A stretch of DNA of 64,000 bases from Pseudomonadota bacterium (GTDB taxonomy: Bacteria > Myxococcota_A > UBA9042 > CAIXZC01). The stretch covers positions 2,818-66,817 of the forward strand of contig JBDRIT010000251.1 of NCBI GenBank assembly GCA_043815665.1. The letters run 5' to 3'. Position numbers and translations under genes: made by a program. The notes beneath the pieces are model-generated. The model had not been told where the DNA came from. It made no database searches and saw only the letters and a list, made by a program, of their open reading frames with translations. Below, in pieces: positions 24,871-55,647 of the stretch; position 1 is the first letter of the stretch; the number at the start of each line of letters is the position of its first letter.

Positions 24871-25061
24871 GGTGCCTCCCGCCCCGCCCCGCCCGAGCCG
24901 GGTGGTGTCGGCCAGAGTGGATCGGGGGGGGGCGTGATGTCAAGCACGCGCGGGGGCGGACCGAGCGCAAACTCAGGGTGATGACGTGGGGCGAGCGCGA
25001 TGTGCACGGATGTCTCCGGCTCTGGTACAATCCCTGGGACTTGTCCTCGCAGAGGTGCCAC

Positions 25062-37096: not shown

Positions 37097-37858
37097 TCAG
37101 TCCCAGTGGACCTGGAAGCAGCCGGTCTCGTCGCTGCCTACACAGTTGGTGCCGTCCGTGTCGCAGAGGCTCACCCGCAGGATGTAGTAGTACCAGGCGT
37201 CCGTGGCGGAGCCCGGGTGGAGCAGGAGCAGATCCGGCAGGTGGCAGCCCACGGGATCCGTCATGACGCCCTCGCAGTCGGACCGGCCGTCCCCGATGGC
37301 CTCCTGCCAGGATCGACGGTTCACCTCGGTGGTGCAGGTGGCCGTCGTGTCGCCGCCCTTGTAGGTGCGGCTGCCCGTGCAGCTCGCCCCCGAGTCCTGG
37401 TAGATCCAGATCTGGAACTTGGCCTGACCGCCGTCGGAGGTCGAGCTGTCGAAGACCGTCGCGCCGGGCCAGAAGAGCACGAGATCGTCGTCGCCGGCGA
37501 TTGCCCCCGCGTACGCGCCCCAGCCGCAGTAGCCCGAGTCGAAGTTCGCGTCCAGCGACCTGGTGCGGCTCTCGCCGTAGGTGCCGGTGCCCACCCCCAG
37601 GGGCAGGCGGTACGCGTCCGCGCAGGAATCATAGGACGCCCAGCACGCATGATCCCGACACATCTCCACCGTGTCGCCCACGCCCAGGAGCAGCAGCTCG
37701 CCCCCCAGGGGCACCTCGGCGCCTGCCTCGTAGACGTCGGTCACGATGCAGTCCTCGGAATCACATTCGCCCTTCGGCGCGGCCGCGGCGGCCGCGCTCC
37801 CGGCAAAGATCAGGAAAACCCCGGACACTCTTGCGACCCATTCCCTACTGAAAGTCAT
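37097..37858 (-). CDS. Secreted hypothetical protein (signal peptide; 12 Cys), last gene of the ECF-sigma operon.
   Basis: MTFSREWVARVSGVFLIFAGSAAAAAAP is a signal peptide. Long ORF in the typical high-GC codon pattern. No recognisable domain. Confidence 0.6.
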   Translation of the reverse strand: MTFSREWVARVSGVFLIFAGSAAAAAAPKGECDSEDCIVTDVYEAGAEVPLGGELLLLGVGDTVEMCRDHACWASYDSCADAYRLPLGVGTGTYGESRTRSLDANFDSGYCGWGAYAGAIAGDDDLVLFWPGATVFDSSTSDGGQAKFQIWIYQDSGASCTGSRTYKGGDTTATCTTEVNRRSWQEAIGDGRSDCEGVMTDPVGCHLPDLLLLHPGSATDAWYYYILRVSLCDTDGTNCVGSDETGCFQVHWD

Positions 37859-37876
37859 CTCTCTCCTCCTTGCGGT

Positions 37877-39322
37877 TTACTGCGGGCAAATGGTCCCGCA
37901 GAGTTGGCACTCCATGACGCAGAGATCGTCCCACCGCTCCAGGCAGCAGTGGGGGTCGGTGGCGCAGACGCATTCCTGGCACGGGCAGTTCCAGCAGTTC
38001 GGGGTGCCGGTCACTTGGCAGCCGTCGCAGGGGGTCACGGCGGGGTGGCAGGTCATCAGTTCATCGCATGTGTCGGAAACGGCGTCGCAGAGGAACACGC
38101 AGAACGGCGACCAGGCCTCCAGGCAGCACGCGGGCTCCGCCGCGCAGACCGCCTCCTCGCACGCACAGCCAGCGCAGCCCGGGGCCTCCCAGCTCACCGC
38201 GCAGGGGTCCGTGGTGGACGGGGCGCAGGTCCCCTCGGGGGTGCAGGCCTCCCCTGCGGGGCAGGTCCCGCAGGTCCCGCCGCAGCCGTCGGGTCCGCAG
38301 GTGGTGACCTGCTCCGGGCCCGGCGAGGCGGTGCAGGCCGGGAAGCAGATCTCCTGGGGCCTGCAGAGGCCCCGCCAGGGATCGGGCAGGAGCGCGCCGT
38401 CGCAGGTCCAGCCCTCGGGGCAGTGGCCCGCGTTGGTGCAGGTGAGGGTGCAGATTCCCCCGTCGTCCTGGGGCAGGCAAACGCCCCCCAGGCAGTCCCC
38501 GTCAGCGCCGCAGGGGAGCCCCGCGTCCGCTGCGCCGGGCAGGCAGGTGGCCCCCGCGTGGCAGCGCTCCCCGGGTCCGCAGGCGCCGCAGGGGCGGTCG
38601 TACTGGTCGGGGCCGCACTCGGGGCGAACACCGTAGGATTGCTCCCCGGCGCCGTAGCTGTTCCCATGGCAGGAAGAATCGGGCTCACAGCCGCTGGCGC
38701 AGTCCGTCGAAAGGATGACACAATTTAAACTCCAGCTCTCCTGGCAACAGGCGGGCCAGAGGGCACAGACACAGGCCTCCACCCCCTCCGGACAACCGGG
38801 GCAGCCCGGCGCGCCGACGGGCGACGGCATGCAGAAGTGGCCCTCCGGGTACCGGCAGAGCCCGTCGGGGGTGCAGGCCGCGTCGGTGGGGCAGGCCCCG
38901 CAGGTGCCGCCGCAGCCGTCGTCGCCGCACATGCGCGTCTTGCAGGCGGGCACGCAGACCGTGACGCAGGCGCCGTCCTCACAGGCCTCCCCCGCGCCGC
39001 AGACGCCGCAGAGGGCCCCGCAGCCGCTCTCGCCGCACTCCCGCTCGCCGCAGAGGGCCTCCTGATCGCAGGCCTCGCACTGCCCTGCGTCGTCGTCGCA
39101 GAGGCTGTAGGCCCCGCAGCTCCCGCAGGAGAGCCCGCACTCCGGGTCCGGGCCGCACTCCCTCCCGGCGCAGTCGGGGACGCAGCCCGGTGCTCCGACG
39201 CAGAGGGCCTGGGGTTGGAAGTCGCACCGGCTGAGGGGGACCTCGGTGCAGGCCGCGATCAGCCCGAAGAGCGCGACGAGGGTCGTCGCAAGGAGCCCGG
39301 ACATCCTTCGGTGAACTCTCAT
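37877..39322 (-). CDS. Cys-rich lipoprotein (481 aa, ~17% Cys) made of CxxCGxDGCGGxCGxC-type modules.
   Basis: MRVHRRMSGLLATTLVALFGLIAAC is a lipoprotein signal. Repeated motifs ECGESGCGALCGVCG and CGDDGCGGTCGACP. The start overlaps the stop of the upstream gene (39324) by a few nt. Confidence 0.75.
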   Translation of the reverse strand: MRVHRRMSGLLATTLVALFGLIAACTEVPLSRCDFQPQALCVGAPGCVPDCAGRECGPDPECGLSCGSCGAYSLCDDDAGQCEACDQEALCGERECGESGCGALCGVCGAGEACEDGACVTVCVPACKTRMCGDDGCGGTCGACPTDAACTPDGLCRYPEGHFCMPSPVGAPGCPGCPEGVEACVCALWPACCQESWSLNCVILSTDCASGCEPDSSCHGNSYGAGEQSYGVRPECGPDQYDRPCGACGPGERCHAGATCLPGAADAGLPCGADGDCLGGVCLPQDDGGICTLTCTNAGHCPEGWTCDGALLPDPWRGLCRPQEICFPACTASPGPEQVTTCGPDGCGGTCGTCPAGEACTPEGTCAPSTTDPCAVSWEAPGCAGCACEEAVCAAEPACCLEAWSPFCVFLCDAVSDTCDELMTCHPAVTPCDGCQVTGTPNCWNCPCQECVCATDPHCCLERWDDLCVMECQLCGTICPQ

Positions 39323-39323
39323 C

Positions 39324-41057
39324 TCAGAACCTCCATAGGATCGCAGCGTCCCCGAAGCCGCCGGCCTCGACGTCTTCGCTCCCGTCCAGGGTGATCACCT
39401 GCGCCGATGCGCCGCCGGAGAACTCCAGGGAGAGGCCCCCCCAGGGCAGGAGCACCGACAGGCCGGCGCGCAGGGCGCCCCGCCAGGAGAGAGGATCTCC
39501 CTTCACGGACGCCCCGGCCTGCCGGACGAGCCACTGGTGGCCCAGCTCCAGCTCGGCGAAGGGTTCCAGGTAGCGGCCGAAGCCCCTCGGCCACCGCACA
39601 CCGGCGAGCGCACCGACGAAGTAGCCGTCCAGGTGGAACCGCTCCAGGTCCACGCGGTGGGAGGAGCGGGAGTAGGCGAAGGAGAGCCCCATCCAGGCCC
39701 AGCGTCCCAGGGTTCGGGCCAGGCCGAGGCGCGCCCCGTGGGACACCCCGTCGAGGCCCAGTGGCACCGAGCCGACGCGGTACCCTGCGGCCAGGCTCCA
39801 GTTCCGGACCGTCGCGGACCGGGCGAGGACCGCCGCTGCGGGGCGCTGCCGCCCCTCCAGGTAGCCGAGCTGGTAGCCCTGACTCATGGGCACGAGGAAG
39901 AGGCCCCGCCGGAGCTGTTCTCCCTCTGCGGAGCGCTCCGCGATCCGGTTGTCGACGAACTCGAGGGTGGAGACCCGGGCGGTCTCTCCGGAAGGCACCA
40001 GCGCGTCGGCGCCCTGCCGGACCACGTGGTAGCTCCGGCCGCCGGGCAGGCGCAGGCGAACGGGCGCATCGGAGGCCGGGTGAGCGTCCGCGACGCGCAC
40101 TGCGCGGTCGTCCTTGATCCAAATCCGCCCCGGGACGTCGACCTCGAGCCAGGTCGCGTCGCTCCCGACCGAGAGATCCAGGAGGACCCGCTCGTCGTCC
40201 CCGGAGGGTCCCTCGATGAAGTGGTCCGGTCGGGAGTGCGGAGACTCGACGCCGCTCACCGCGGCGGACACGAACGCGACCACCTCTCCGTAGGTGATGC
40301 GCGCGTCCCGGTCCAGATCCGCGCCCCCAGCGAGGGCGCTGCGCACCAGGTAGGAGAAGACGCCGCTGCCCAGGAGGCTGAACTCGAAGGCGCGCACCCC
40401 CTCCGAGGAGGCCAGCAGGAAGCCCGTGTTCGGGAAGCGTCGCGCCGCCCCCTCCTGCTGCAGGGCCTCGGCGAGGGCCTCGGTCACCGGCACCGGGACG
40501 GTGTCGGGACGCCACTTCCCCTCACCTCGGGGGCGGACCAGGTCCCAGGCGTTGCAGGTGTCCACGATCAGGTGGACCGTCACGCCCTGGAGGCGCTCCA
40601 GCATCTTCAGGAGGTCGTCCCGTGTCAGGCGCCCGTCGGGGAGGACGAAGTAGCCGTCCCCCATTGCGTCCACCCCGCCGTGGCCGACGAGGATCAGGAA
40701 CATCTCCTGCGGCGCGTCGGAGCCCTGGATCTCCTCGACCATCTCGTTGAAGCCGCGGAGGATGTCGCTGCGCTGGGGGGCGAGGACCTGCTTCGCCAGC
40801 CCGGGCCAGGTTTCACGGGTCTCGTTGTCGAGGATCGCATGGACATGGGTCCGGGTCGCACGGAACCCGAGGAGCTCCATGTAAGCGAGCGCGTCGTCGT
40901 CCGTGTAGCGCAGGGTGGGGAACTCCTCGTCGCCGACGCCGGGGGAGGAGATGATGAAGAGGTTCACCTCTGACGGCCCCGGCCGGGCGTCTGACGCGGT
41001 CGCCGGAGCGGCGACCACGATGATGACCATCGTGATGGCCAGGGTCATCCATCTCAT
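39324..41057 (-). CDS. Secreted caspase-like (clan CD cysteine peptidase) domain protein with a C-terminal putative outer-membrane beta-barrel.
   Basis: Signal peptide MRWMTLAITMVIIVVAAPATASD. His-Gly and Cys motifs of clan CD (FLILVGHGG … HLIVDTCNAW). The C-terminal ~250 aa have alternating hydrophobic pattern, G/R/Y-rich loops and a terminal ...ILWRF aromatic residue typical of beta-barrel OMPs. Confidence 0.65.
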   Translation of the reverse strand: MRWMTLAITMVIIVVAAPATASDARPGPSEVNLFIISSPGVGDEEFPTLRYTDDDALAYMELLGFRATRTHVHAILDNETRETWPGLAKQVLAPQRSDILRGFNEMVEEIQGSDAPQEMFLILVGHGGVDAMGDGYFVLPDGRLTRDDLLKMLERLQGVTVHLIVDTCNAWDLVRPRGEGKWRPDTVPVPVTEALAEALQQEGAARRFPNTGFLLASSEGVRAFEFSLLGSGVFSYLVRSALAGGADLDRDARITYGEVVAFVSAAVSGVESPHSRPDHFIEGPSGDDERVLLDLSVGSDATWLEVDVPGRIWIKDDRAVRVADAHPASDAPVRLRLPGGRSYHVVRQGADALVPSGETARVSTLEFVDNRIAERSAEGEQLRRGLFLVPMSQGYQLGYLEGRQRPAAAVLARSATVRNWSLAAGYRVGSVPLGLDGVSHGARLGLARTLGRWAWMGLSFAYSRSSHRVDLERFHLDGYFVGALAGVRWPRGFGRYLEPFAELELGHQWLVRQAGASVKGDPLSWRGALRAGLSVLLPWGGLSLEFSGGASAQVITLDGSEDVEAGGFGDAAILWRF

Positions 41058-41920
41058 GGCACGACCTCCCGAACGACGAGGATCCAGGACCCGGACTCGC
41101 AGTCTCGTCGCGTGTCCAGGAGGTCGTCGATGCCCTCCTGTCCACCCGCGGCTGCGTCAGCCCAGTCCGTCCAGGGGATCGGATCGTCGCAGGCGGCCCA
41201 CACCACCTGGTAGGGGCCGGTTGGGTAGTTTATGGAGAGATCCAGGGTCGGCCAGGCCTCCGTCGGGCGGTCAGCAGGCGCGACCCAGCCGGGATCCACG
41301 TGGACCGGGTTGGGCACGATCCAGACGGGCTCGTCCCCGCCGTAGGGCAACGCCACGGCGTGGAGCCAGGCGCCGACGTCCGTGCGCAGCACGTAGGTGA
41401 GGAGCAGGTACTGGTCTGCACCGCAGACGGCGAGACCTTGCGACGCGATCGCCCCCTCGACGACGTGGCTCTCGGAATCCATGCAGTAGGGGCGCAGGTA
41501 GGCTGCGCCGTCCCCGCGGGCGGTCCAGATCCCGGGCTGCTCCACGCCGGGGCGATCCGGCTCCATGCCGGTGGGCAGGAGCACGGCCAGGAGCACCGCC
41601 GCTGCCGCCAGGGCCCAGCGGGCTGCGCGCCGGGCGAACCGTGCGGGCGGATCCCCGGCTCCTGCGAGCGCGGGAGAATAGAAGCGAGTCAGGGATTCGA
41701 AGCTGGAGGCGATCCGAGCCTCCATGGGGCCCAGCACGGCGAACGCATCGGCTCTCTGCGCCAGGGCGAGATCCACCCCGGCGAGGCGATCGTAGCGTCG
41801 GCGTGCCGTCTCGTCCCGCCGCAGGGCAGCGCCGAGGCCCTCCAGGTCCTGGGGAGCCAGGGACAGGAAGGCCGCCTCGAGGCGCTGTTCACAGGTCCCT
41901 TGCTGTTCCATCCGGGGCAC
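41054..41920 (-). CDS. Anti-sigma-factor-like membrane protein: cytoplasmic N-domain, one TM helix, periplasmic C-domain.
   Basis: It sits immediately downstream of the ECF sigma gene with a 3-nt gap. Single hydrophobic helix WALAAAAVLLAVLLP in the middle. The start overlaps the downstream gene by 4 nt. Confidence 0.6.
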   Translation of the reverse strand: MPRMEQQGTCEQRLEAAFLSLAPQDLEGLGAALRRDETARRRYDRLAGVDLALAQRADAFAVLGPMEARIASSFESLTRFYSPALAGAGDPPARFARRAARWALAAAAVLLAVLLPTGMEPDRPGVEQPGIWTARGDGAAYLRPYCMDSESHVVEGAIASQGLAVCGADQYLLLTYVLRTDVGAWLHAVALPYGGDEPVWIVPNPVHVDPGWVAPADRPTEAWPTLDLSINYPTGPYQVVWAACDDPIPWTDWADAAAGGQEGIDDLLDTRRDCESGSWILVVREVVP

Positions 41921-41923
41921 CTC

Positions 41924-42475
41924 TCAATCCTCCACGTCGGTCCCGCCCTCTCGCCGGGTCAGCTGCGCGAGGCGAGACCTCGCTCGTTGCACTGCGCGCT
42001 TGACCCAGTTCCGGTCCACGCCCAGGTGCCGCGCGGTGCTCTCCTGGGTTCGGCGATCGAGCAGGGTCATCAGCACCGCGCTGCGTTCCCGTTCACTCAA
42101 CGATTCGAGCACCTTCTCCACGAGCTCCGCCGCCTCCAGCTGCATCTCCGGCCCCTGCGTGGCGGCCTCCGGTGCGTCGCCGGAGTGCATTCGCGCCGTC
42201 TGCCGCAGGCTCGTCCGGGTCACGTTCCTCGCGATCGCCACGAGATACGTGAAGTACTTGACGGACCCGCTGTAGGCGTCGCGCTGCCGTGGGCTGAACG
42301 CCAGGCAGAACGTCTCCGAGAGCACGTCCATCAGATCAAATCGGCTCAACCGATACCGTGCGACCAGGAACCGCACCAGGTCGTCACGGTAGGTCGAGAA
42401 GACGAGCTCGAGCACCTCCTTGTCCCCTGATCTGAATCGAGACAGCAGATCAGGTCGTTCCCGGAACAGGGACAT
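41924..42475 (-). CDS. ECF-type RNA polymerase sigma-70 family factor.
   Basis: Region 2 (…VLSETFCLAFSPRQRD…YLVAIARNVTRT) and region 4 HTH (…ERERSAVLMTLLDRRTQESTARHLGVDRNWVKRAVQRARSRL). 183 aa. Confidence 0.9.
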   Translation of the reverse strand: MSLFRERPDLLSRFRSGDKEVLELVFSTYRDDLVRFLVARYRLSRFDLMDVLSETFCLAFSPRQRDAYSGSVKYFTYLVAIARNVTRTSLRQTARMHSGDAPEAATQGPEMQLEAAELVEKVLESLSERERSAVLMTLLDRRTQESTARHLGVDRNWVKRAVQRARSRLAQLTRREGGTDVED

Positions 42476-42704
42476 GCTCGCCTTCCATCCTCATGTTGTT
42501 GATGCACGGGGCGACGGTTTTGGTCACGGGATCTGCAGATCCCTTGTTTTTTTTTGATGGTACGGCGGGGCAGGGGACCCCACAAAAATCGAAGATCATT
42601 CCAATCACTTGCGATCAGGCAGGGATCTTGTTCCATCGCCATGGATCTCTGCTACCCTCTCGTGACAGGGCGTGAGGGGACTCGCCATCAGCCGGGGGCG
42701 CAAC

Positions 42705-43043
42705 ATGAAGACCTGTCCGTACTGCGCAGAGGAGATCCAGGACGGCGCCATCAAGTGCCGATACTGCGGGGAGTTCCTCGACGGATCCCGCAGACCGCAG
42801 GGCCCGCAGGGGAAGTGGTATTTCTCCAACACGGTGGTGGTCCTCGCCCTCCTGAGCGTCGGGCCCTTCGCGCTCCCCCTGATCTGGCTGAATCCCCGTT
42901 ACGGCATGGCGGGTCGGATCGTGGTGACCATCGCCGTCCTGGTGCTCTCCTACTTTGTCTGGATGTTCTTCCAGGATCTTCTGGCGGACCTTGGGGAAAT
43001 TGGGGACCAGGTGGAGCTGCTGCAGGAGCTGGGCGGGGGATGA
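42705..43043 (+). CDS. Small zinc-ribbon membrane protein (CPYC…CRYC ribbon followed by two TM helices).
   Basis: [27 protein letters not shown], then hydrophobic stretches [19 protein letters not shown] and [21 protein letters not shown] at 42705 is preceded by a G-rich SD-like stretch. Divergent from the ECF sigma gene. Confidence 0.55.
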
Positions 43044-43061
43044 GGCGTCCGGGCGCCCCCG

Positions 43062-43736
43062 TCAGGGATTCGTCGCGACCCAGATCGTGTGGCGGCGTCC
43101 CTTGGACTTTCCGGAGTCGCGGAGGCGGACCTCCCGGGCCTTGAAGCCGGCCTTCCAGAGACGATCGGTGAAGCCGCGGAGGGGGGCGACGGACCAGATG
43201 GTCAGCACCCCGCCGGGACGCAGGGCCTTGCGGGTCACGGCGAGGCCTTCGGGATCGTAGAGCCAGCGGTTCCCCGGGAGGATGATGCCGTCCGGGCCGT
43301 TGTCCACGTCGTTCATGATCGCGTCGTACCTGTTTGGCGAGGTCCGGAGGACGGCGGCGATGTCCTCCACACGGACCGTCGTTCGCGGGTCGTCCAGCGG
43401 GCGCCCGGCCAGATGTGCGAGGGGGCCGCGGTTCCATTCGACGACGCCGGGGACCAGCTCGACGATCTCCACCCGCGCATCGGGCCCCAGCCGGGCCAGG
43501 GTCGCCCCCAGGGTGAACCCCATGCCCAGGCCGCCCACCAGCACCACGGGACGGGGCCGGCGGGCGATGGGGTCGCAGGCGAGCTCGGCCAGAGACTCCT
43601 CGGAGCCATGGACCCGGCTGGTCATGAGCTCCAGGCCGTCCACCCGGATCGAGAAGTCCTCTCCGCGACGGTGCAGCTGCAGCTCGGTCTTGCTGCCGGG
43701 AACCGCAGCTCGGCCCAGGCTCTCCCAAGGGATCAT
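43062..43736 (-). CDS. Spermidine/spermine synthase family (PABS-like) class I methyltransferase-fold protein.
   Basis: MIPWESLG…ELQLHRRGEDFSIRVDGLELMTS…VLVGGLGMGFTL…IVELVPGVVEW… follows the polyamine aminopropyltransferase pattern. The start at ATG 43736 has a GGAGG SD 4 nt upstream. The longer ORF to 43874 adds Pro/Gly-rich junk. Confidence 0.7.
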   Translation of the reverse strand: MIPWESLGRAAVPGSKTELQLHRRGEDFSIRVDGLELMTSRVHGSEESLAELACDPIARRPRPVVLVGGLGMGFTLGATLARLGPDARVEIVELVPGVVEWNRGPLAHLAGRPLDDPRTTVRVEDIAAVLRTSPNRYDAIMNDVDNGPDGIILPGNRWLYDPEGLAVTRKALRPGGVLTIWSVAPLRGFTDRLWKAGFKAREVRLRDSGKSKGRRHTIWVATNP

Positions 43737-43870
43737 TCGTCCTCCATGCGTCCGAGAGGTCGCAGACGGGACCGATACCACGCCCCCGGCGTTCCCGTCC
43801 AGCCAAGAGTTCCGGCTTGCGCAGCGTGGAGCATGTGGGCCTGGAGGGCCTCCCGCAGGGGAGGGAGAGA

Positions 43871-44515
43871 TCATTGTTCGAGGATGGACAGGAGGGCCTG
43901 GATGTCCGTGGGCTCCTTGGCGTCGTAGAGGAGGAGCGCCTGGAGGGTCCCGTCAGGCGCGATGACGACATCGCCGCGGTGAAGATAGTGGCCGCCGTCG
44001 TCCTCGAGGCCGAACATCTCTCCGACCAGGCCGCCCTCATCGCTGAGGAGGAGGAGGCTCAGGAGGCCGAGGTCATCGGCCCAGTGAGCCAGCACGAGGG
44101 GGTCCTCCATGGAGACACCGAAGGGGAACGCGCCGAGGGCGCGGATCTCGCCGTAGCGTGCCTCGAGCTTCTCGACCTGCTGTTGGCTCAGTCCCTGGGC
44201 TGCGGTGGGGAAGAAGCTCAGGACCATGGTCTTCCCGATGGAATCGGACAGCGAGATCTCGGCGCCGCTGTGGGCCGGGAGGCTGAAGTCGGGGACCGTG
44301 TCCCCGGGCACGAGGGGGTAGGTGACGGTTGTGTCCTCCCCGGGGATCAGGGGGGTGTCCTCGCCGGGGGCGGCATCGGCGGGCGGCTCTGCGGAGTCCA
44401 AGGTCCCCCACCCCCAATCCGGGATCACGCCCGAGACATCGGCGTTGCCCCCTTCCTTTCCCCCTGCACAGGCGGCGAACAGCACCAGCAAGAGCCCAGA
44501 GACGGTGACGCGCAT
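43871..44515 (-). CDS. Thioredoxin-fold (AhpC/TSA-like redoxin) lipoprotein that lacks any Cys in the mature domain.
   Basis: MRVTVSGLLLVLFAACAGG is a lipoprotein signal. DFSLPAHSGAEISLSDSIGKTMVLSFFP resembles the peroxiredoxin N-terminal strand, but the FTxVCP cysteine is replaced (SFFPTAAQG). The start at 44515 is supported by the signal peptide. Confidence 0.65.
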   Translation of the reverse strand: MRVTVSGLLLVLFAACAGGKEGGNADVSGVIPDWGWGTLDSAEPPADAAPGEDTPLIPGEDTTVTYPLVPGDTVPDFSLPAHSGAEISLSDSIGKTMVLSFFPTAAQGLSQQQVEKLEARYGEIRALGAFPFGVSMEDPLVLAHWADDLGLLSLLLLSDEGGLVGEMFGLEDDGGHYLHRGDVVIAPDGTLQALLLYDAKEPTDIQALLSILEQ

Positions 44516-46037: not shown

Positions 46038-46397
46038 TCAACCCTGCAAGAGCGTGGTTTTTACCTTCCAGAGGACCGGCATCAACTTGGCGAGGACCCA
46101 GCCGAGGGCGCGCAGGGCCGGTCCGTCCAGGGGCAGGGAGCGCCCACGGCGGATCGCGTGCACCGCGACGCCGCGCACATCGGAGACCGGGACGGGCGGA
46201 TCTTCCGACGTGCAGCCGTCACCCCGGGTCGTCACGAACCCCTCGCTGACCCGGAGCACGCGGTGCAGGGCGACGTCATCTCCCCGGGGGACCAGGACGA
46301 TCTCGCCGACCCGCGGCAGGCGCCGGGGCAGGGGACGGATCATCACCGGGGTGCCGTCCGGGAGGAAGGGGCGCATGCTCCCACCGCGAGCGATCAT
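46038..46397 (-). CDS. Sec11/SipW-type (S26B, Ser-His) signal-peptidase-like protein, 119 aa. Last gene of the peptide-modification cassette.
   Basis: Box B GGSMRPFLPDG contains the catalytic Ser. Box D GEIVLV…DDVALHRVLRV has His where bacterial type-I signal peptidases have Lys, the same pattern as Sec11 (…PIVHRVLR). ATG 46397 follows immediately after the radical SAM stop. The first 86 codons of the 205-codon ORF are read-through. Confidence 0.65.
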   Translation of the reverse strand: MIARGGSMRPFLPDGTPVMIRPLPRRLPRVGEIVLVPRGDDVALHRVLRVSEGFVTTRGDGCTSEDPPVPVSDVRGVAVHAIRRGRSLPLDGPALRALGWVLAKLMPVLWKVKTTLLQG

Positions 46398-47422
46398 CGG
46401 TCGCCTTCCCCGGAGTCGGGGTCCAGGCGTCGCCAGAGGGCCGTGCGCTGGCAGATTGATGGCGCCGGCCTGGCGGGATCTCCGGTCTCCCGCAGGGACC
46501 GGGCCGGGCACGCGTAGCACCAGGGCCGGTCCGCGCACTCCATGCAGCCCGTGGACGTGCCCCAGGTGAGACTCCGGAGGGGTCGGAGCGACGGAGGGTC
46601 CCGCCACAGGTCGGCGAGGCGCTCGTCCCGCACGTTTCCGAGGGTCTCGGGCCACTCGAGGCAGGGGCGTACGTTGCCGTCGGGGCCGACGTAGAGGGAG
46701 AGCCGCCCGGCGAGGCAGACGGGCTCGTCGGCCCGCACCTCCCTGCGGGGTGGGCGGTCACCGAAGGCAGTCTCCCATTGCTCCTGCCTGGAGGACTCGC
46801 CGACCCAGAGCCCATCGAGGGGGTAGCCCTCGAAGCAGCCGATGTCCTTGAGTTCGTTGATCGCTACGGTGCGGATCCCCTGGGCGAGGAGCCCGCTGCG
46901 GACCGTCGAGAAGTCCTCCTCGAAACCCTGGAGCAGGGTCACCACGGCCTCCACCCGGACCCCCAGCGCCTGCAGACGCAGGATCGTGGCGAGGCTGCGG
47001 TCGAAGGAGCCGGGGAGGCGGGTCACCTCATCGTGGACCAACCGACGGTGGCTGTAGAGGCTCACATGGACCGTGCGCACCCCGAGCTTCGCCAGGGTGT
47101 CGCAGTCCTCGGGCCGGCACAGGGTCCCCGAGGTCTTCACCAGCACCATGAATCCCCGACGCCGGGCCTCCCCGACGATGTCGAGGAAGTCCGGACGGGT
47201 GAAGACCTCCCCGCCGCTGAACAGGAGACTCATCACCCCCATGTCGGCGAGCTGTTCGAGGACATCGACGAGGTCGGCGAGGGACAGCTCCTTGGGCGCG
47301 TCGCCGCCGAGGTAGCAGTGTCGGCACCGCAGGGGGCAGCGCCAGGTCGGGTCGATGTGTGCATGGAACAGACGCCCGTGACGAAGATATCGCTGGTAGA
47401 GCCAGGCTACGTGGTCGGACAC
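46394..47422 (-). CDS. Radical SAM / SPASM-domain peptide-modifying maturase.
   Basis: CxxxCxxC cluster WRCPLRCRHCY near the N-terminus. C-terminal auxiliary-cluster Cys pattern (…VCLAGR…GNVRPCLEW…GCMECADRPWCYACPA). 342 aa. Confidence 0.9.
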   Translation of the reverse strand: MSDHVAWLYQRYLRHGRLFHAHIDPTWRCPLRCRHCYLGGDAPKELSLADLVDVLEQLADMGVMSLLFSGGEVFTRPDFLDIVGEARRRGFMVLVKTSGTLCRPEDCDTLAKLGVRTVHVSLYSHRRLVHDEVTRLPGSFDRSLATILRLQALGVRVEAVVTLLQGFEEDFSTVRSGLLAQGIRTVAINELKDIGCFEGYPLDGLWVGESSRQEQWETAFGDRPPRREVRADEPVCLAGRLSLYVGPDGNVRPCLEWPETLGNVRDERLADLWRDPPSLRPLRSLTWGTSTGCMECADRPWCYACPARSLRETGDPARPAPSICQRTALWRRLDPDSGEGDR

Positions 47423-48222
47423 GTCAACCTCCGGAAGAGCGCCCGATCCAGATCCTTGAGGGAGACGTCCATCATCCGACAGGGGACCTCGGCGACGATC
47501 TTTATGAGGCGGTCCATCAGCAGGGCAGAGAGGGTGGGGGAGCCGGGGAAGAGGACGGCGTTGCGGATCGCCAGGCGGAGGGCTTCGGCGACGGGCAGGG
47601 CGGGTCCCAGGGTGGTCCTCCCGCCTCGACGGAGGAACAGGAGGCCACCCAGGGGGAGGGTCCCCGTCCCCGTAGCGTTGACCCCCCCGGCGCGCCAGAG
47701 GCCGTCGTCACCGGGCACCAGCGTGGTGAGGTCGTCCGTGATCTTCCTGTCGGGGTCGAGCCGGTTGACGACGGTGCTCTTTCCTGTCGCGTGGGGCGCA
47801 GGGAAGGTCCAGGCGCGGCCGCTCTGCGCCGATGTGGACGCGTGGAGGACCACGCCGAGACCCTCCTCCAGCAGGGCGGCGACCCCGGTCGCAGCCAGGG
47901 TCAGGGTCAGCTGGTCCATCATCTCGCCCGGCCGCAGCGAGGGATCCAGTGTCAGTCCACATCCTCCGGAGTCGATGTACGCGACGGCACCTCGCGCCTG
48001 GAACGACAATCGCCCCCGCTCCTCTACGAATCTCGGTTCGCTCGACGCGGGCTCCGAGGGACCGATCACCACGTCGAGGATGCGATGGACGCGGCGCGGC
48101 CACGGGTCGTATCGAAGCGTCTTGGGAGGCGCCGCCGCCCGGACGAGCTTGTCCAGCCGGATGGGATCCAATGCGGGATCGAAGTGGGCTTCGAAGCTGA
48201 CCGGGCCGAAGGCGAGGTTCAT
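47407..48222 (-). CDS. HPr kinase C-terminal-domain-related P-loop protein (HprK-related kinase of RiPP-type cassettes).
   Basis: GVVLHASTSAQSGRAWTFPAPHATGKSTVVNRL matches the HprK C-domain core (…LHAS…G…GxSGxGKST). The start is set at ATG 48222 (MNLAFGPVSFEAHF…). The upstream 53 codons of the long ORF overlap the precursor ORF in another frame. Confidence 0.65.
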   Translation of the reverse strand: MNLAFGPVSFEAHFDPALDPIRLDKLVRAAAPPKTLRYDPWPRRVHRILDVVIGPSEPASSEPRFVEERGRLSFQARGAVAYIDSGGCGLTLDPSLRPGEMMDQLTLTLAATGVAALLEEGLGVVLHASTSAQSGRAWTFPAPHATGKSTVVNRLDPDRKITDDLTTLVPGDDGLWRAGGVNATGTGTLPLGGLLFLRRGGRTTLGPALPVAEALRLAIRNAVLFPGSPTLSALLMDRLIKIVAEVPCRMMDVSLKDLDRALFRRLTCPTT

Positions 48223-48265
48223 CTGCGGAGGTGGCGGTTTGGGGCTGGCGGGATGGGTCCCCGGA

Positions 48266-48415
48266 TCAGCCAGTGGGGGTCTGCCAGCCGCAGCCCCCGC
48301 CGCTGAGCGCCTGGAACAAGCATCCCGACTGGAGGACGTTCTTCTCGAAGCCCTCGCGGACCTCGACCACCGGCTGCACATAGGCCTTCTTCATCTGCTT
48401 GGCGTCATTCATCAT
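48266..48415 (-). CDS. Putative RiPP precursor peptide (49 aa): MMNDAKQMKKAYVQPVVEVREGFEKNVLQSGCLFQALSGGGCGWQTPTG.
   Basis: A perfect AGGAGG lies 8 nt upstream of ATGATG (minus strand). The peptide has a charged leader-like N-half and a Gly/Cys/Ser/Thr-containing C-half. It sits directly upstream of the kinase-like, rSAM/SPASM and peptidase genes on the same strand, with a 43-nt spacer to the next gene. Confidence 0.55.
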   Translation of the reverse strand: MMNDAKQMKKAYVQPVVEVREGFEKNVLQSGCLFQALSGGGCGWQTPTG

Positions 48416-48471
48416 GGAGTGACCTCCTACGTGGGGACAGTGTATCGAACCATCCCCGGGTGTCAATCGAC

Positions 48472-55548: not shown

Positions 55549-55647
55549 GGTGGTACCTCCGAATGGGCGGGCTTTCCCGGGTGGTAGAGACCTCGACCGC
55601 CTTTGCGCCCTGTCAGGTCGGGTTGTCTGCATCACAAGTCTAAGCGT

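What the first reader, a model, noticed from the sequence alone, without database searches (positions are those of the whole stretch)
37097..42475. ECF sigma / anti-sigma operon driving a caspase-like peptidase fused to a beta-barrel, a Cys-rich lipoprotein and a secreted protein
Five minus-strand genes with 0-20 nt spacing or overlapping stops and starts: sigma (41924..42475), anti-sigma-like one-TM protein (41054..41920), clan CD peptidase with C-terminal beta-barrel-like half (39324..41057), 17%-Cys lipoprotein (37877..39322), secreted 253-aa protein (37097..37858). Linking an outer-membrane-embedded caspase-type protease to envelope-stress-style regulation is unusual. The Cys-rich lipoprotein shares its CGxDGCGGxCGxC module with two other giant proteins in the window.
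Basis: partly seen in the sequence, partly recalled or inferred. Interest (0 to 1): 0.55.

Follow-up and report, generated by a model that had tools for sequence, protein, structure and literature searches.

The report
Sigma-factor operon with outer-membrane caspase-like protease
This is a real five-gene operon whose first three genes (an alternative sigma factor, its membrane-bound inhibitor and a caspase-like protease held in the space between the two membranes) form a module common in myxobacteria, first noticed in 2012 but never explained; here the protease is anchored in the outer membrane.

Summary
All five minus-strand ORFs sit at the stated coordinates, with 3-nt, 1-nt and 18-nt gaps and one ATGA overlap.

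- **Sigma factor:** it passes the curated ECF threshold.
- **288-aa protein:** a diverged one-TM member of a zinc-finger (ZAS) anti-sigma family that has lost HxxxCxxC.
- **577-aa protein:** signal peptide, caspase/metacaspase fold (His126 and Cys168 invariant in 163 relatives), beta-sandwich, helical linker, then a confidently modelled 8-stranded OmpA/OmpX/NspA-like barrel ending ILWRF. The protease domain should therefore lie in the periplasm.

The link is not rare. An exhaustive profile search finds over 1,100 sequence clusters. In 69 of 72 Myxococcota genome loci, an ECF sigma gene lies just upstream of the caspase-like gene. A 2012 survey already noted sigma–metacaspase operons in Myxococcus.

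The barrel anchor is a minority variant; most relatives have hydrophobic helices instead. The Cys-rich lipoprotein and the 253-aa protein occur only in close relatives.

My best reading, at moderate confidence, is that the protease is both sigma-induced and the signal-activated site-1 protease. It would cut the anti-sigma at a near-invariant juxtamembrane Ala-Arg-Gly. This is a split analogue of M. xanthus DdvA. I rate it a new variant of a known kind.

The parts
42476..42620 (-). Conserved upstream region of the operon (candidate promoter and 5' UTR). It includes the perfect 16-bp palindrome GGGATCTGCAGATCCC at 42528-42543 and the GGAAGG ribosome-binding site.
   Evidence: The alignment with L001, L002 and L003 is nearly invariant over the last ~75 nt before the ATG, although the gene upstream differs. 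The palindrome was reported. No sigma-70-type promoter was found, and no family ECF promoter motif.
41924..42475 (-). ECF (group 4) sigma-70 family sigma factor, 183 aa.
   Evidence: TIGR02937 at 1.4e-17, 63.8 bits, above the 42.9-bit cutoff. Pfam Sigma70_r4_2 at 4.9e-9. It is 31% identical to the sigma of L006 and 22% to that of L005.
41054..41920 (-). Single-pass anti-sigma factor homologue, 288 aa (probably 285 aa from the ATG at 41911). It has a cytoplasmic N-domain without the HxxxCxxC zinc motif, a TM helix, and a ~170-aa periplasmic domain.
   Evidence: No Pfam or NCBIfam hit of its own. A family profile built without it hits it at E=4e-6 over residues 27-242. In that family, 24 of 37 members match zf-HC2, best 9.3e-11. 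It groups with the non-ZAS 'RLDRLL' subtype.
41573..41626 (-). Transmembrane segment of the anti-sigma (residues 99-116, AARWALAAAAVLLAVLLP).
   Evidence: Read from the sequence. The position is conserved in alignments A2 and A6.
41513..41521 (-). Juxtamembrane periplasmic Ala134-Arg135-Gly136 motif, the candidate site-1 cleavage site.
   Evidence: Across 37 anti-sigma homologues: Arg in 36 (Lys in the other), Gly in 36, Ala in 32. It is the most conserved feature of the periplasmic part. Its role as a cleavage site is inference.
39324..41057 (-). Caspase-like (clan CD, C14-type) protein of 577 aa: signal peptide, protease domain, beta-sandwich, helical linker and a C-terminal 8-stranded barrel.
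   Evidence: AF2 model with the 27-sequence alignment has mean pLDDT 82.8. The protein has a single Cys, Cys168.
40203..40976 (-). Caspase/metacaspase-fold domain (residues 28-285). Catalytic His126 is at 40680-40682 and Cys168 at 40554-40556. Other conserved features are the YxDDD motif (residues 51-55, 40893-40907), Asp166, and an EF-hand-like loop D247-E258 (40284-40319).
   Evidence: pLDDT is about 90. Foldseek hits are MALT1 at 2.9e-6, with Yca1, AtMC9, TbMCA2 and caspases-3/7/8 following. H126, C168, D55, D166, D247 and E258 are invariant in 163 of 163 sequences, and D53 and D54 in 162 of 163. The loop matches the EhCaBP EF-hand loops. 4 of 12 relatives hit PF00656, best 2.6e-11.
39963..40190 (-). 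Beta-sandwich domain (residues 290-365) following the protease domain.
   Evidence: AF2 models strands at pLDDT 85-92. The top hits, MALT1 caspase-Ig3 constructs, have the same two-domain arrangement.
39327..39800 (-). C-terminal 8-stranded outer-membrane beta-barrel (residues 420-577), ending ...AAILWRF.
   Evidence: AF2 gives 8 long antiparallel strands at pLDDT 77-95. Foldseek hits are NspA at 4.4e-7 (TM 0.66), followed by the OmpA TM domain, Ail, OmpX, OprF-N, OmpW and PagL. Most strands alternate a hydrophobic and a polar face. The same domain is present in 31 of 163 family sequences.
37877..39322 (-). Cys-rich lipoprotein of 481 aa (83 Cys). It carries 2 CGxDGCGGxCGxC modules (38261-38299, 38891-38929) and 3 PxCCx3Wx3C modules.
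   Evidence: The lipobox is LIAAC25. Homologues occur only in the close relatives L001-L004 and in none of 80 Myxococcota loci. No Pfam, NCBIfam or PADLOC hit.
37097..37858 (-). Secreted 253-aa protein (signal peptide, 13 Cys) of unknown fold. It is the last gene of the operon.
   Evidence: ORF. N-terminus is MTFSREWVARVSGVFLIFAGSAAAAAAP. Homologues occur only in L001 and L003. No family hits.
37101..37117 (-). Weak terminator-like hairpin at the 3' end of the fifth gene.
   Evidence: 6-bp stem. Three such sites were found in the region against 1.4 expected, so this is only weak support.

Best explanation
The first three genes form a self-contained envelope signalling unit that is widespread in Myxococcota. 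It consists of an ECF sigma factor, its single-pass anti-sigma factor, and a membrane-anchored periplasmic caspase-like (metacaspase-type) endopeptidase.

**Shown**
- The three genes are co-inherited and translationally coupled.
- The protease has an intact His-Cys dyad and an EF-hand-like loop.
- In this lineage it carries an OmpA/OmpX-type 8-stranded barrel at its C-terminus. Both ends of such barrels face the periplasm, so the catalytic domain hangs into the periplasm from the outer membrane. That is the same compartment as the anti-sigma's sensor domain.
- In relatives, the sigma-type promoter precedes the sigma gene and, where the genes are divergent, the protease gene too.

**Inferred**
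- A signal (possibly Ca2+ or an envelope or outer-membrane perturbation) activates the protease.
- The protease then acts as the site-1 protease. It cuts the anti-sigma's periplasmic part, most plausibly after the near-invariant Arg of the juxtamembrane Ala-Arg-Gly motif.
- A site-2 protease of the RseP type removes the stub and frees the sigma factor.
- The freed sigma factor transcribes its own operon, including more protease (positive feedback). In this lineage the operon also includes the co-transcribed Cys-rich lipoprotein and the secreted protein.

On this reading the system is a split version of M. xanthus DdvA, whose caspase-like CHAT domain is fused to the anti-sigma.
For: - **Synteny.** Of 72 Myxococcota genome loci with enough upstream DNA, 67 have an ECF sigma gene upstream on the same strand and 2 have it divergent. 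An anti-sigma of the same family is detected in 54. The same triad occurs in metagenomic relatives only 29-37% identical over the matched N-terminal part.
- **Coupling.** There is an ATGA overlap here, and an equivalent start/stop overlap in L005, L006, L007 and L072.
- **Catalytic residues.** H126, C168, D55 and D166 are invariant in 163 of 163 sequences, so selection maintains an active protease rather than a pseudo-enzyme.
- **Fold.** Metacaspase/paracaspase fold.
- **Compartment.** Signal peptide plus a C-terminal barrel or, in most relatives, C-terminal hydrophobic helices. Either way the domain is periplasmic.
- **Candidate cleavage site.** In the anti-sigma family the most conserved periplasmic feature is A-R-G, 10-20 residues after the TM helix, with a basic residue in 37 of 37.
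- **S1 pocket.** The motifs LRYxDDDA and DxC correspond to the metacaspase LxGCxNDA and DxC motifs, whose Asp residues bind a P1 Arg or Lys. This rests on established knowledge of metacaspase and MALT1 structures, recalled from memory.
- **Sigma dependence in relatives.** The TCAAC-N15-GTGTTCT motif occurs in about 32 of 75 sigma upstream regions, against at most 5 in shuffles. Of 49 PWM hits in 1.78 Mb, 37 lie just upstream of the sigma gene. The divergent loci L042 and L055 carry a second copy facing the protease gene.
- **Precedents.** DdvA has a periplasmic TPR-CHAT domain proposed as its own site-1 protease, with RseP shown to act next (PMC11506125). That paper also cites craspases, in which a TPR-CHAT protease cleaves putative anti-sigma factors.
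Against: - No cleavage, binding or sigma activity has been measured, so the site-1 role is entirely inferential.
- The A-R-G motif could simply be a structural start of the periplasmic domain.
- An outer-membrane-tethered protease must span the periplasm to reach a site about 19 residues from the inner membrane. That is sterically demanding.
- The anchor can be swapped between the inner and outer membrane. This fits a general periplasmic effector at least as well as a dedicated partner of the anti-sigma.
- Being under control of the sigma factor is what one expects of a regulon output. Classical site-1 proteases such as DegS and Prc are not encoded in the sigma operon.
- The predicted Arg/Lys specificity rests on motif correspondence recalled from memory. 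Profile searches against PDB sequences gave no usable alignment to metacaspases.
- In this window the family promoter is absent, and the sigma and anti-sigma are divergent (22-31% and 22-24% identity to the relatives aligned). Properties of the family may therefore not transfer fully.
Confidence: 0.4

Rival explanations
1. Pure output model. The anti-sigma's own periplasmic domain senses the signal. The caspase-like protein is only the main product of the regulon: a sigma-induced periplasmic endopeptidase, tethered here to the outer membrane. It would degrade or process envelope or foreign proteins, for example during predation, defence, developmental lysis or envelope remodelling. In this lineage it would act alongside the co-expressed Cys-rich lipoprotein and the secreted protein.
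For: - The sigma-type promoter sits directly upstream of the protease gene in the divergent loci L042 and L055.
- Within the ~13-kb loci, PWM hits are almost confined to the operon itself, so the operon products look like the output.
- The membrane anchor varies between inner and outer membrane.
- The downstream genes vary but are often envelope-active: Peptidase_M23 in L005, L007 and L008, and an FG-GAP/fibronectin-type giant in L072.
- The sigma – anti-sigma – target operon layout is common among ECF groups (general knowledge).
Against: - It does not explain why this particular anti-sigma family, with its near-invariant juxtamembrane Arg, always travels with this protease.
- It does not explain why genomes keep several paralogous triads, each with its own sigma. 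Examples are L013/L026, L044/L046 and L052/L080 from the same MAGs, and four operons in M. xanthus (PMC3501461).
- Dedicated sigma/anti-sigma pairs for a single effector protease would be unusually costly.
Confidence: 0.3
2. Co-sensor or co-anti-sigma model. The caspase-like protein binds the anti-sigma's periplasmic domain non-proteolytically, as RseB binds RseA or as an outer-membrane transducer contacts FecR. It gates access by another site-1 protease. Its own proteolytic activity would be directed at itself (autoprocessing) or at a ligand.
For: - The same synteny evidence applies.
- An outer-membrane-anchored third component resembles the sigma / anti-sigma / outer-membrane-transducer triads of cell-surface signalling (general knowledge).
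- The disordered basic linker after Cys168 (residues 178-192, pLDDT below 50; R177 is Arg or Lys in 163 of 163) resembles caspase intersubunit linkers that are autoprocessed.
Against: The absolute conservation of the dyad and the acidic pocket residues argues that catalysis is central. No interaction data exist, and AF2-multimer could not be run.
Confidence: 0.12
3. Maturation-protease model for the lineage-specific cargo. The protease processes the adjacent Cys-rich lipoprotein and/or the 253-aa secreted protein at the outer membrane. The sigma/anti-sigma pair merely regulates this secretion and processing cassette.
For: Spacing of 1 nt and 18 nt places the protease and both cargo genes in one transcript. 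All three products are exported. The five-gene order is kept in close relatives.
Against: The two cargo genes are absent from all 80 Myxococcota loci and from the distant metagenomic relatives. The Cys-rich gene is split in L001 and L002. This therefore cannot be the conserved function of the protease.
Confidence: 0.08

Closest known systems
[quoted passage not shown]
   Same: Both come from Myxococcota. Both pair an ECF sigma with a single-pass anti-sigma and a periplasmic caspase-superfamily domain that has a His-Cys dyad. The DdvA CHAT domain is proposed, but not demonstrated, to be the site-1 protease that cuts the juxtamembrane linker before RseP acts.
   Different: Here the protease is a separate gene product of the C14/metacaspase type, not CHAT. 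It has no TPR region. It has its own membrane anchor (an outer-membrane barrel here, helices in most relatives) and an EF-hand-like loop. The window's anti-sigma lacks the zinc motif. No defence island is attached (PADLOC gave no hits).
Sigma-70/metacaspase operons of Myxococcus, Anaeromyxobacter, Haliangium and Sorangium, noted by Asplund-Samuelsson et al. 2012 (PMC3501461)
   Same: This is the same gene association: four of the five M. xanthus DK1622 metacaspases lie in operons with sigma factors. This window is very probably a divergent member of that set.
   Different: The 2012 survey only listed the co-occurrence. It did not describe the anti-sigma partner, the periplasmic location, the anchors, the promoter or any mechanism. 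The barrel-anchored form and the Cys-rich cargo genes are not mentioned.
Type III-E CRISPR craspase (the TPR-CHAT protease Csx29 cleaving Csx30, which controls an ECF sigma)
   Same: A caspase-superfamily protease cleaves an anti-sigma-like protein to control an ECF-type sigma factor. PMC11506125 cites this; the details are general knowledge.
   Different: That system is cytoplasmic, RNA-guided, of the CHAT type and a defence system. No CRISPR components are present here.
Regulated intramembrane proteolysis of RseA (DegS then RseP), and Prc/RseP processing of cell-surface-signalling anti-sigmas
   Same: The logic is the same: a periplasmic site-1 cut of a single-pass anti-sigma near the membrane, then a site-2 cut and sigma release. 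In cell-surface signalling, an outer-membrane protein is the third, sigma-regulated component.
   Different: The site-1 enzymes there are serine proteases that are not encoded in the sigma operon. The outer-membrane component there is a 22-stranded TonB-dependent transducer, not an enzyme on an 8-stranded barrel.
Small 8-stranded outer-membrane barrels (OmpA TM domain, OmpX, Ail, NspA, OmpW)
   Same: Same strand number and fold, with Foldseek E-values down to 4.4e-7 and target TM-scores of 0.53-0.67 for NspA, OmpA, Ail and OmpX. There is also a C-terminal aromatic residue.
   Different: No Pfam OMP family reaches threshold. The barrel is C-terminal to a large periplasmic enzyme, the reverse of OmpA's domain order. 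At 8 strands it is too small to be an autotransporter.
EACC1/EACC2-associated caspases of bacterial conflict systems (NF047832; PMC8195603)
   Same: These are caspase-fold proteins, sometimes with an ECF sigma gene nearby. Relatives of the window protein give weak hits to NF047832.
   Different: Scores are 16-23 bits against a cutoff of 140, and the window protein gives no hit. Those systems are cytoplasmic, with EACC and effector domains that are absent here.

Membership tests
ECF (group 4) sigma-70 factors | Small protein with only sigma-2 and sigma-4 regions, scoring above the curated TIGR02937 cutoff. | tested here: met
   63.8 bits against a cutoff of 42.9, covering residues 26-171 of 183. 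Sigma70_r4_2 at 4.9e-9; Sigma70_r2 only weak at 0.0044.
ZAS (zf-HC2) anti-sigma factors | N-terminal HxxxCxxC zinc-binding anti-sigma domain (PF13490). | tested here: not met
   The window protein has no Pfam hit at E<=1, and RRDETARRRY stands where relatives have HxxxCxxC. 24 of 37 relatives do hit zf-HC2.
ZAS (zf-HC2) anti-sigma factors | Homology to, and the same architecture as, bona fide members: a gene directly after the sigma gene, a single TM helix and a periplasmic C-domain. | tested here: met
ZAS (zf-HC2) anti-sigma factors | Binds and inhibits the cognate sigma factor. | not testable with these tools
   This needs a two-hybrid or pull-down assay, or a co-fold.
Peptidase C14 / clan CD (caspase-hemoglobinase fold) | Caspase-type alpha/beta fold. 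| tested here: met
   AF2 gives pLDDT of about 90 for residues 30-285. Foldseek hits include MALT1 at 2.9e-6, Yca1 at 6.4e-6, AtMC9, TbMCA2, caspases-3/7/8 and legumain.
Peptidase C14 / clan CD (caspase-hemoglobinase fold) | Catalytic His after one central strand (xGHG) and Cys after the next (DxC). | tested here: met
   H126 follows strand 117-125 and C168 follows strand 160-166. Both are invariant in 163 of 163 sequences. A residue-by-residue superposition on a solved caspase was not available.
Peptidase C14 / clan CD (caspase-hemoglobinase fold) | Scores above the Pfam PF00656 threshold. | tested here: not met
   The window protein gives no hit at E<=1. 4 of 12 relatives hit PF00656, best 2.6e-11. 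The window protein is therefore a divergent relative linked through intermediates.
Metacaspase/orthocaspase/paracaspase branch (P1 Arg/Lys specificity) | Acidic S1 pocket: an Asp two residues before the catalytic Cys, and an Asp in the motif after strand 1. | tested here: inconclusive
   D166 and D55 are invariant. Their positions match the metacaspase DxC and GCxND motifs as recalled from the literature. Profile searches against PDB sequences gave no usable alignment.
8-stranded outer-membrane beta-barrels (OmpA/OmpX/NspA type) | Eight antiparallel membrane-spanning strands forming a closed barrel, with structural similarity to solved members. | tested here: met
8 strands between residues 420 and 576 at pLDDT 77-95. 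NspA at 4.4e-7 (TM 0.66), followed by OmpA, Ail, OmpX, OprF-N and OmpW.
8-stranded outer-membrane beta-barrels (OmpA/OmpX/NspA type) | C-terminal beta-signal (terminal aromatic residue with alternating hydrophobic residues) and dyad-repeat hydrophobicity of the strands. | tested here: met
   The sequence ends ...A-A-I-L-W-R-F. Five of the eight strands have one clearly more hydrophobic face; in two the two faces barely differ.
8-stranded outer-membrane beta-barrels (OmpA/OmpX/NspA type) | Actual insertion in the outer membrane, with the N-terminal domain in the periplasm. | not testable with these tools
   The topology is inferred from the rule that both termini of even-stranded OMP barrels face the periplasm.
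DdvA-type anti-sigma (TPR-CHAT fused to a ZAS domain) | One polypeptide with a ZAS domain, a TM helix and a periplasmic TPR-CHAT domain. | tested here: not met
   The anti-sigma and the protease are separate ORFs. No CHAT or TPR hit was found. The protease is of the C14 type.
Autotransporters | 12-stranded C-terminal barrel with a passenger exported through it. | tested here: not met
   Only 8 strands. Autotransporter barrels are weaker, poorly superposed hits with TM 0.23. Pfam Autotransporter hits only 2 of 12 relatives, at E=0.024.
Bacterial lipoproteins (the 481-aa protein) | Signal peptide ending in a lipobox [LVI][ASTVI][GAS]C. | tested here: met
   MRVHRRMSGLLATTLVALFGLIAAC25. Acylation itself is not testable here.
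EACC1-associated caspases (NF047832) | Scores above the curated cutoff of 140 bits. | tested here: not met
   No hit for the window protein. Relatives score 16-23 bits.

The most novel reading that the evidence does not exclude
Myxococcota may possess a large, previously uncharacterised class of 'caspase-gated' ECF pathways. In these, a stand-alone periplasmic metacaspase-like enzyme would be the dedicated site-1 protease, cutting its cognate anti-sigma after a near-invariant juxtamembrane Arg. The enzyme has an EF-hand-like loop and so may be Ca2+-responsive. In the barrel-anchored variant seen here, the protease is embedded in the outer membrane. Events at the outer membrane or cell surface (contact, predation, envelope damage) could then be converted directly into a proteolytic, self-amplifying transcriptional switch.
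Probability: 0.3. Interest if true: 0.7.

Novelty: new variant of a known kind. Interest (0 to 1): 0.5.

Why it matters
Bacterial caspase homologues are abundant, yet almost none has a defined substrate or role. The only studied link between a periplasmic caspase-like domain and an ECF sigma factor (DdvA) still lacks proof of cleavage, because its signal is unknown.

This family offers a cleaner test:
- The protease and the anti-sigma are separate genes.
- The anti-sigma carries a near-invariant candidate cut site, A-R-G.
- The protease has an intact dyad and an acidic pocket.
- The sigma factor of most relatives has a recognisable promoter (TCAAC-N15-GTGTTCT) that could serve as a reporter.
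- Members exist in cultured myxobacteria (M. xanthus, Archangium violaceum, Cystobacter fuscus, Corallococcus, Minicystis).

If the site-1 model holds, caspase-family proteolysis would become a general input mechanism for ECF signalling. It would also give a first physiological substrate for a bacterial metacaspase.

If the model fails, the family is still a large set of sigma-induced periplasmic proteases whose targets are worth finding.

The finding is only moderately surprising. The gene association was already noted in 2012, and all the parts belong to known superfamilies.

Tried and rejected
- **Word-indexed protein searches.** These found only 13-14 relatives and suggested a rare family. 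The exhaustive profile search contradicted this with 1,121 clusters at E<=1e-30.
- **First AF2 model.** The 12-sequence alignment left residues 405-577 at pLDDT below 30, which was uninformative. It was superseded by the 27-sequence model.
- **Shared fold idea.** I tested whether the anti-sigma periplasmic domain and the protease's beta-sandwich share a fold; one anti-sigma relative hits DUF4384. hhalign gave probability 0.1%, so I rejected this.
- **PDB sequence searches.** Profile searches meant to give a residue-level alignment to metacaspases returned only EF-hand loop hits and a 0.036 hit to AtMC9. The catalytic-domain profile returned nothing.
- **Family promoter in this window.** The best PWM score was 14.7, below the shuffle maxima of 15-16 and the training minimum of 19.5. 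The motif is absent. No second bipartite motif emerged from the 39 loci that lack the first.
- **Conserved fourth gene.** Downstream genes in the 80 loci fall into clusters of 3 or fewer. The Cys-rich and 253-aa proteins have no homologues there.
- **Defence-system membership.** PADLOC gave no hits for any of the five proteins.
- **Curated family name.** NCBIfam gave only sub-threshold caspase_w_EACC1 hits.
- **ECF classification paper.** Its main text does not mention caspase or C14, and its supplements are not held. An existing ECF group number for this sigma factor therefore cannot be excluded.
- **Circular comparison.** One search compared the window protein with an alignment that contains it. 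I discarded that result and replaced it.

Full report
**1. The observation**

The five minus-strand ORFs are present exactly as described. Read from the sequence, the junctions are:
- sigma stop to the next start: 3 nt;
- that gene to the 577-aa gene: an ATGA overlap;
- 577-aa gene to the lipoprotein gene: 1 nt;
- lipoprotein gene to the last gene: 18 nt, containing AAGGAGG.

A weak hairpin with a T-run sits at the 3' end of the fifth gene. The lipoprotein has 83 Cys in 481 residues and a lipobox. Its CGxDGCGGxCGxC module occurs twice, and three times each in the ORFs 24978-28046(+) and 55951-60303(-). The window matches an NCBI MAG record labelled 'Pseudomonadota bacterium' (locus ABIK09_21110). 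Every identifiable relative is from Myxococcota.

**2. The individual proteins**

*Sigma factor.* It passes the curated ECF model: TIGR02937 at 63.8 bits against a cutoff of 42.9.

*The 288-aa protein.* It has no Pfam or NCBIfam hit of its own. The genes in the same position next to related protease genes form one family (A6, 37 sequences). Of these, 24 hit the anti-sigma zinc finger zf-HC2. A profile built without the window protein hits it at E=4e-6 across the TM helix and the periplasmic domain. The window protein belongs to a minority subtype that has lost HxxxCxxC. Relatives start at the ATG at 41911.

*The 577-aa protein.* It has no Pfam hit at E<=1, but 4 of 12 relatives hit Peptidase_C14, best 2.6e-11.
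- AF2 models residues 30-285 as a caspase-type domain and residues 290-365 as a beta-sandwich, at pLDDT of about 90.
- Foldseek returns MALT1 caspase-Ig3, yeast, Candida, Arabidopsis and trypanosome metacaspases, caspases-3/7/8 and legumain.
- His126 and Cys168 lie at the ends of consecutive central strands and are invariant in 163 of 163 family sequences. So are D55, D166, E225, D247 and E258; D53, D54 and D77 are each conserved in 162 of 163.
- Cys168 is the only cysteine in the protein.
- Residues 247-258 form an EF-hand-type loop, DxDxD...E, which matches the Entamoeba CaBP loops.

*The C-terminus.* With a 12-sequence alignment the C-terminus was unmodelled. I then found 22 further sequence clusters that share this ~190-aa C-terminal domain. 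A 27-sequence alignment gave eight long antiparallel strands between residues 420 and 576 at pLDDT 77-95. The top structural matches are NspA, the OmpA TM domain, Ail, OmpX, OprF-N, OmpW and PagL. Most strands alternate hydrophobic and polar faces, and the chain ends ...ILWRF.

Both termini of such barrels face the periplasm, so the protease domain is inferred to hang into the periplasm from the outer membrane. Eight strands are too few for an autotransporter.

**3. The family and its context**

The word-indexed searches badly underestimated the family, finding only 13-14 hits. The exhaustive profile search finds 1,121 clusters (at 50% identity) at E<=1e-30.

A scan of species-representative genomes found 185 relatives. 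The best 80 are all Myxococcota, including Cystobacter, Archangium, Corallococcus, Pyxidicoccus, Minicystis, Sorangium, Vitiosangium, Kofleriaceae, Anaeromyxobacteraceae and Bradymonadia.

Using HMMs of the three window proteins, I examined the 72 loci with enough upstream DNA:
- 67 have an ECF sigma gene upstream on the same strand;
- 2 have it divergent;
- 3 have none;
- 54 have a detectable anti-sigma of the same family in between.

Metagenomic relatives at 29-37% identity over the matched N-terminal part show the same triad with overlapping stop and start codons.

The genes after the protease are heterogeneous. The Cys-rich lipoprotein and the 253-aa protein occur only in the 78-83% identical relatives. 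The conserved unit is therefore a triad, and the last two genes are lineage-specific passengers.

The barrel anchor is a minority form: 31 of 163 sequences, and 3 of 80 genome loci. These include the cultured Archangium violaceum Cb vi76 and a Vitiosangium strain. Most members instead carry one to four hydrophobic segments of 19 or more residues at the C-terminus, which I infer are inner-membrane helices. Either anchor leaves the catalytic domain in the periplasm.

**4. Regulation**

Upstream of the sigma genes of about 32 of 75 loci lies a bipartite motif, TCAAC-N15-GTGTTCT. One variant occurs in 19 of 71 sequences, against at most 5 in shuffles. A PWM scan of all loci (1.78 Mb, both strands) gives 49 hits, 37 of them just upstream of the sigma gene.

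In the two loci where sigma/anti-sigma and the protease gene are divergent (L042 and L055), the intergenic region holds two back-to-back copies. One faces the sigma gene and one faces the protease gene. In the family, the protease gene is therefore preceded by the same candidate promoter as the sigma gene, which marks it as a likely target of the sigma factor.

The window itself has no such motif. Its sigma factor is divergent. Its upstream ~140 nt are conserved with close relatives despite a rearranged neighbour, and include a perfect 16-bp palindrome. In this lineage, 'sigma drives the operon' thus rests on operon structure alone.

**5. Mechanism**

The strongest conserved feature of the anti-sigma's periplasmic part is Ala-Arg-Gly, 10-20 residues beyond the TM helix. 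The position is basic in 37 of 37 sequences.

The protease's invariant D55 (in LRYxDDDA) and D166 (in DxC) occupy the positions of the acidic S1-pocket residues of metacaspases and MALT1, which cut after Arg or Lys. This step rests on my knowledge of those structures, not on a computed alignment (searches gave none).

Together with the DdvA precedent, this leads me to favour, at confidence 0.4, a model with three elements:
- the protease is the signal-activated site-1 protease of its anti-sigma;
- an RseP-type protease completes the release of the sigma factor;
- the sigma factor induces the protease in turn, giving positive feedback.

In DdvA, a periplasmic TPR-CHAT domain fused to a ZAS anti-sigma is proposed to self-cleave the juxtamembrane linker before RseP acts (PMC11506125).

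The main rival, at 0.3, is that the protease is simply the regulon's output. In its favour are the sigma control, the interchangeable anchors, and the distance an outer-membrane-tethered enzyme must span to reach a site near the inner membrane. Less likely are a non-proteolytic co-sensor role (0.12) and a cargo-maturation role for the lineage-specific genes (0.08).

**6. Comparison with what is known**

Asplund-Samuelsson et al. (2012) already noted that four of the five M. xanthus DK1622 metacaspases lie in operons with sigma-70-family genes. They saw the same in Anaeromyxobacter, Haliangium and Sorangium, and offered no mechanism (PMC3501461). I found no paper that characterises these operons. 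The ECF reclassification paper does not mention them in its main text, and its supplements are not held.

The system is not a DdvA-type protein: the genes are separate, the protease is C14 rather than CHAT, and there is no TPR region. It is not an EACC-caspase system (scores far below cutoff). It is not a known defence system.

**7. Verdict**

The association is common in Myxococcota and was previously noticed, so its unusualness was overstated.

New here are:
- the outer-membrane-barrel anchor;
- the zinc-less anti-sigma;
- the Cys-rich cargo genes;
- at the family level, a concrete and testable cleavage hypothesis and a candidate promoter.

I rate it a new variant of a known kind, with interest 0.5.

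Noticed in passing
window 46394-55635 (-): A giant 2387-aa protein (Big_13, FG-GAP) is followed by an ORF at 47407-48381 in the position of the ScmC-like gene of L001 (itself only a weak Pfam mark) and by a radical SAM/SPASM enzyme (46394-47422). In the relatives L001 and L003, a 49-aa ORF lies between the giant gene and the ScmC-like gene. This looks like a RiPP-type maturation cluster a few kb from the operon.
   Followed up: partly
window 24978-28046 (+) and 55951-60303 (-): These two large proteins share the CGxDGCGGxCGxC module. One is a 1022-aa protein with Dictyostelium-type Cys-rich repeats (Dicty_CTDC, 5.5e-38). The other is a 1450-aa protein with a C-terminal PPC domain. The module itself matches no Pfam or NCBIfam model.
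   Followed up: partly
window 42528-42543: A perfect 16-bp palindrome, GGGATCTGCAGATCCC, lies about 65 nt upstream of the sigma start codon. It sits inside a block conserved in L001-L003, where 6 of 8 positions per half-site are kept. It may be an operator. It cannot be a terminator for either neighbouring gene.
   Followed up: partly
window 42672-43874: In the relatives L001 and L003, the AhpC/TSA gene directly precedes the sigma gene. In the window, a spermine-synthase-like gene (43062-43874, -) and a zinc-ribbon/TM gene (42672-43043, +) are inserted between them. The ~140 nt upstream of the sigma gene are nevertheless retained.
   Followed up: no
L005, L007, L009, L012 and about 28 other loci, 80-150 nt upstream of the sigma genes: A family-wide bipartite motif, TCAAC-N15-GTGTTCT (variant GCGTTA), is the candidate promoter of this ECF group. 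The divergent loci L042 (5849-5911) and L055 (about 5730-5815) carry two back-to-back copies.
   Followed up: yes
P0012, P0013, P0018, P0027 and similar (helix-anchored family members): Members whose C-terminal region has hydrophobic helices instead of a barrel still end in a conserved ...RDPxL...GGxxxxLxGxF tail. 101 of 163 sequences end in Phe. The role of this tail is unexplained.
   Followed up: no
L001 9736-11149 and L002 4697-5828: The Cys-rich lipoprotein gene is split into two overlapping ORFs in these close relatives, but is intact in L003, L004 and the window. This could be a frameshift, a pseudogene or an assembly error.
   Followed up: no
L052 1859-3190: In an unrelated groundwater Deltaproteobacteria MAG, the gene directly downstream of the caspase-like gene also carries one CGxDGCGGxCGxC module. 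It clusters with the downstream genes of L044 and L060.
   Followed up: no
whole window: The source MAG is labelled 'Pseudomonadota bacterium'. The best 80 genome relatives of the protease are all Myxococcota. The gene content (FHA/sigma-54 activator, Dicty_CTDC and Cys-rich giants, 66-74% GC) also looks myxobacterial, so the label is probably imprecise.
   Followed up: no
window 39324-41057, residues 177-192: A disordered basic stretch (RPRGEGKWRPDTVPVP, pLDDT below 50) follows the catalytic Cys strand. It starts at R177, which is Arg or Lys in 163 of 163 sequences. It sits where caspase and metacaspase intersubunit linkers are autoprocessed.
   Followed up: no
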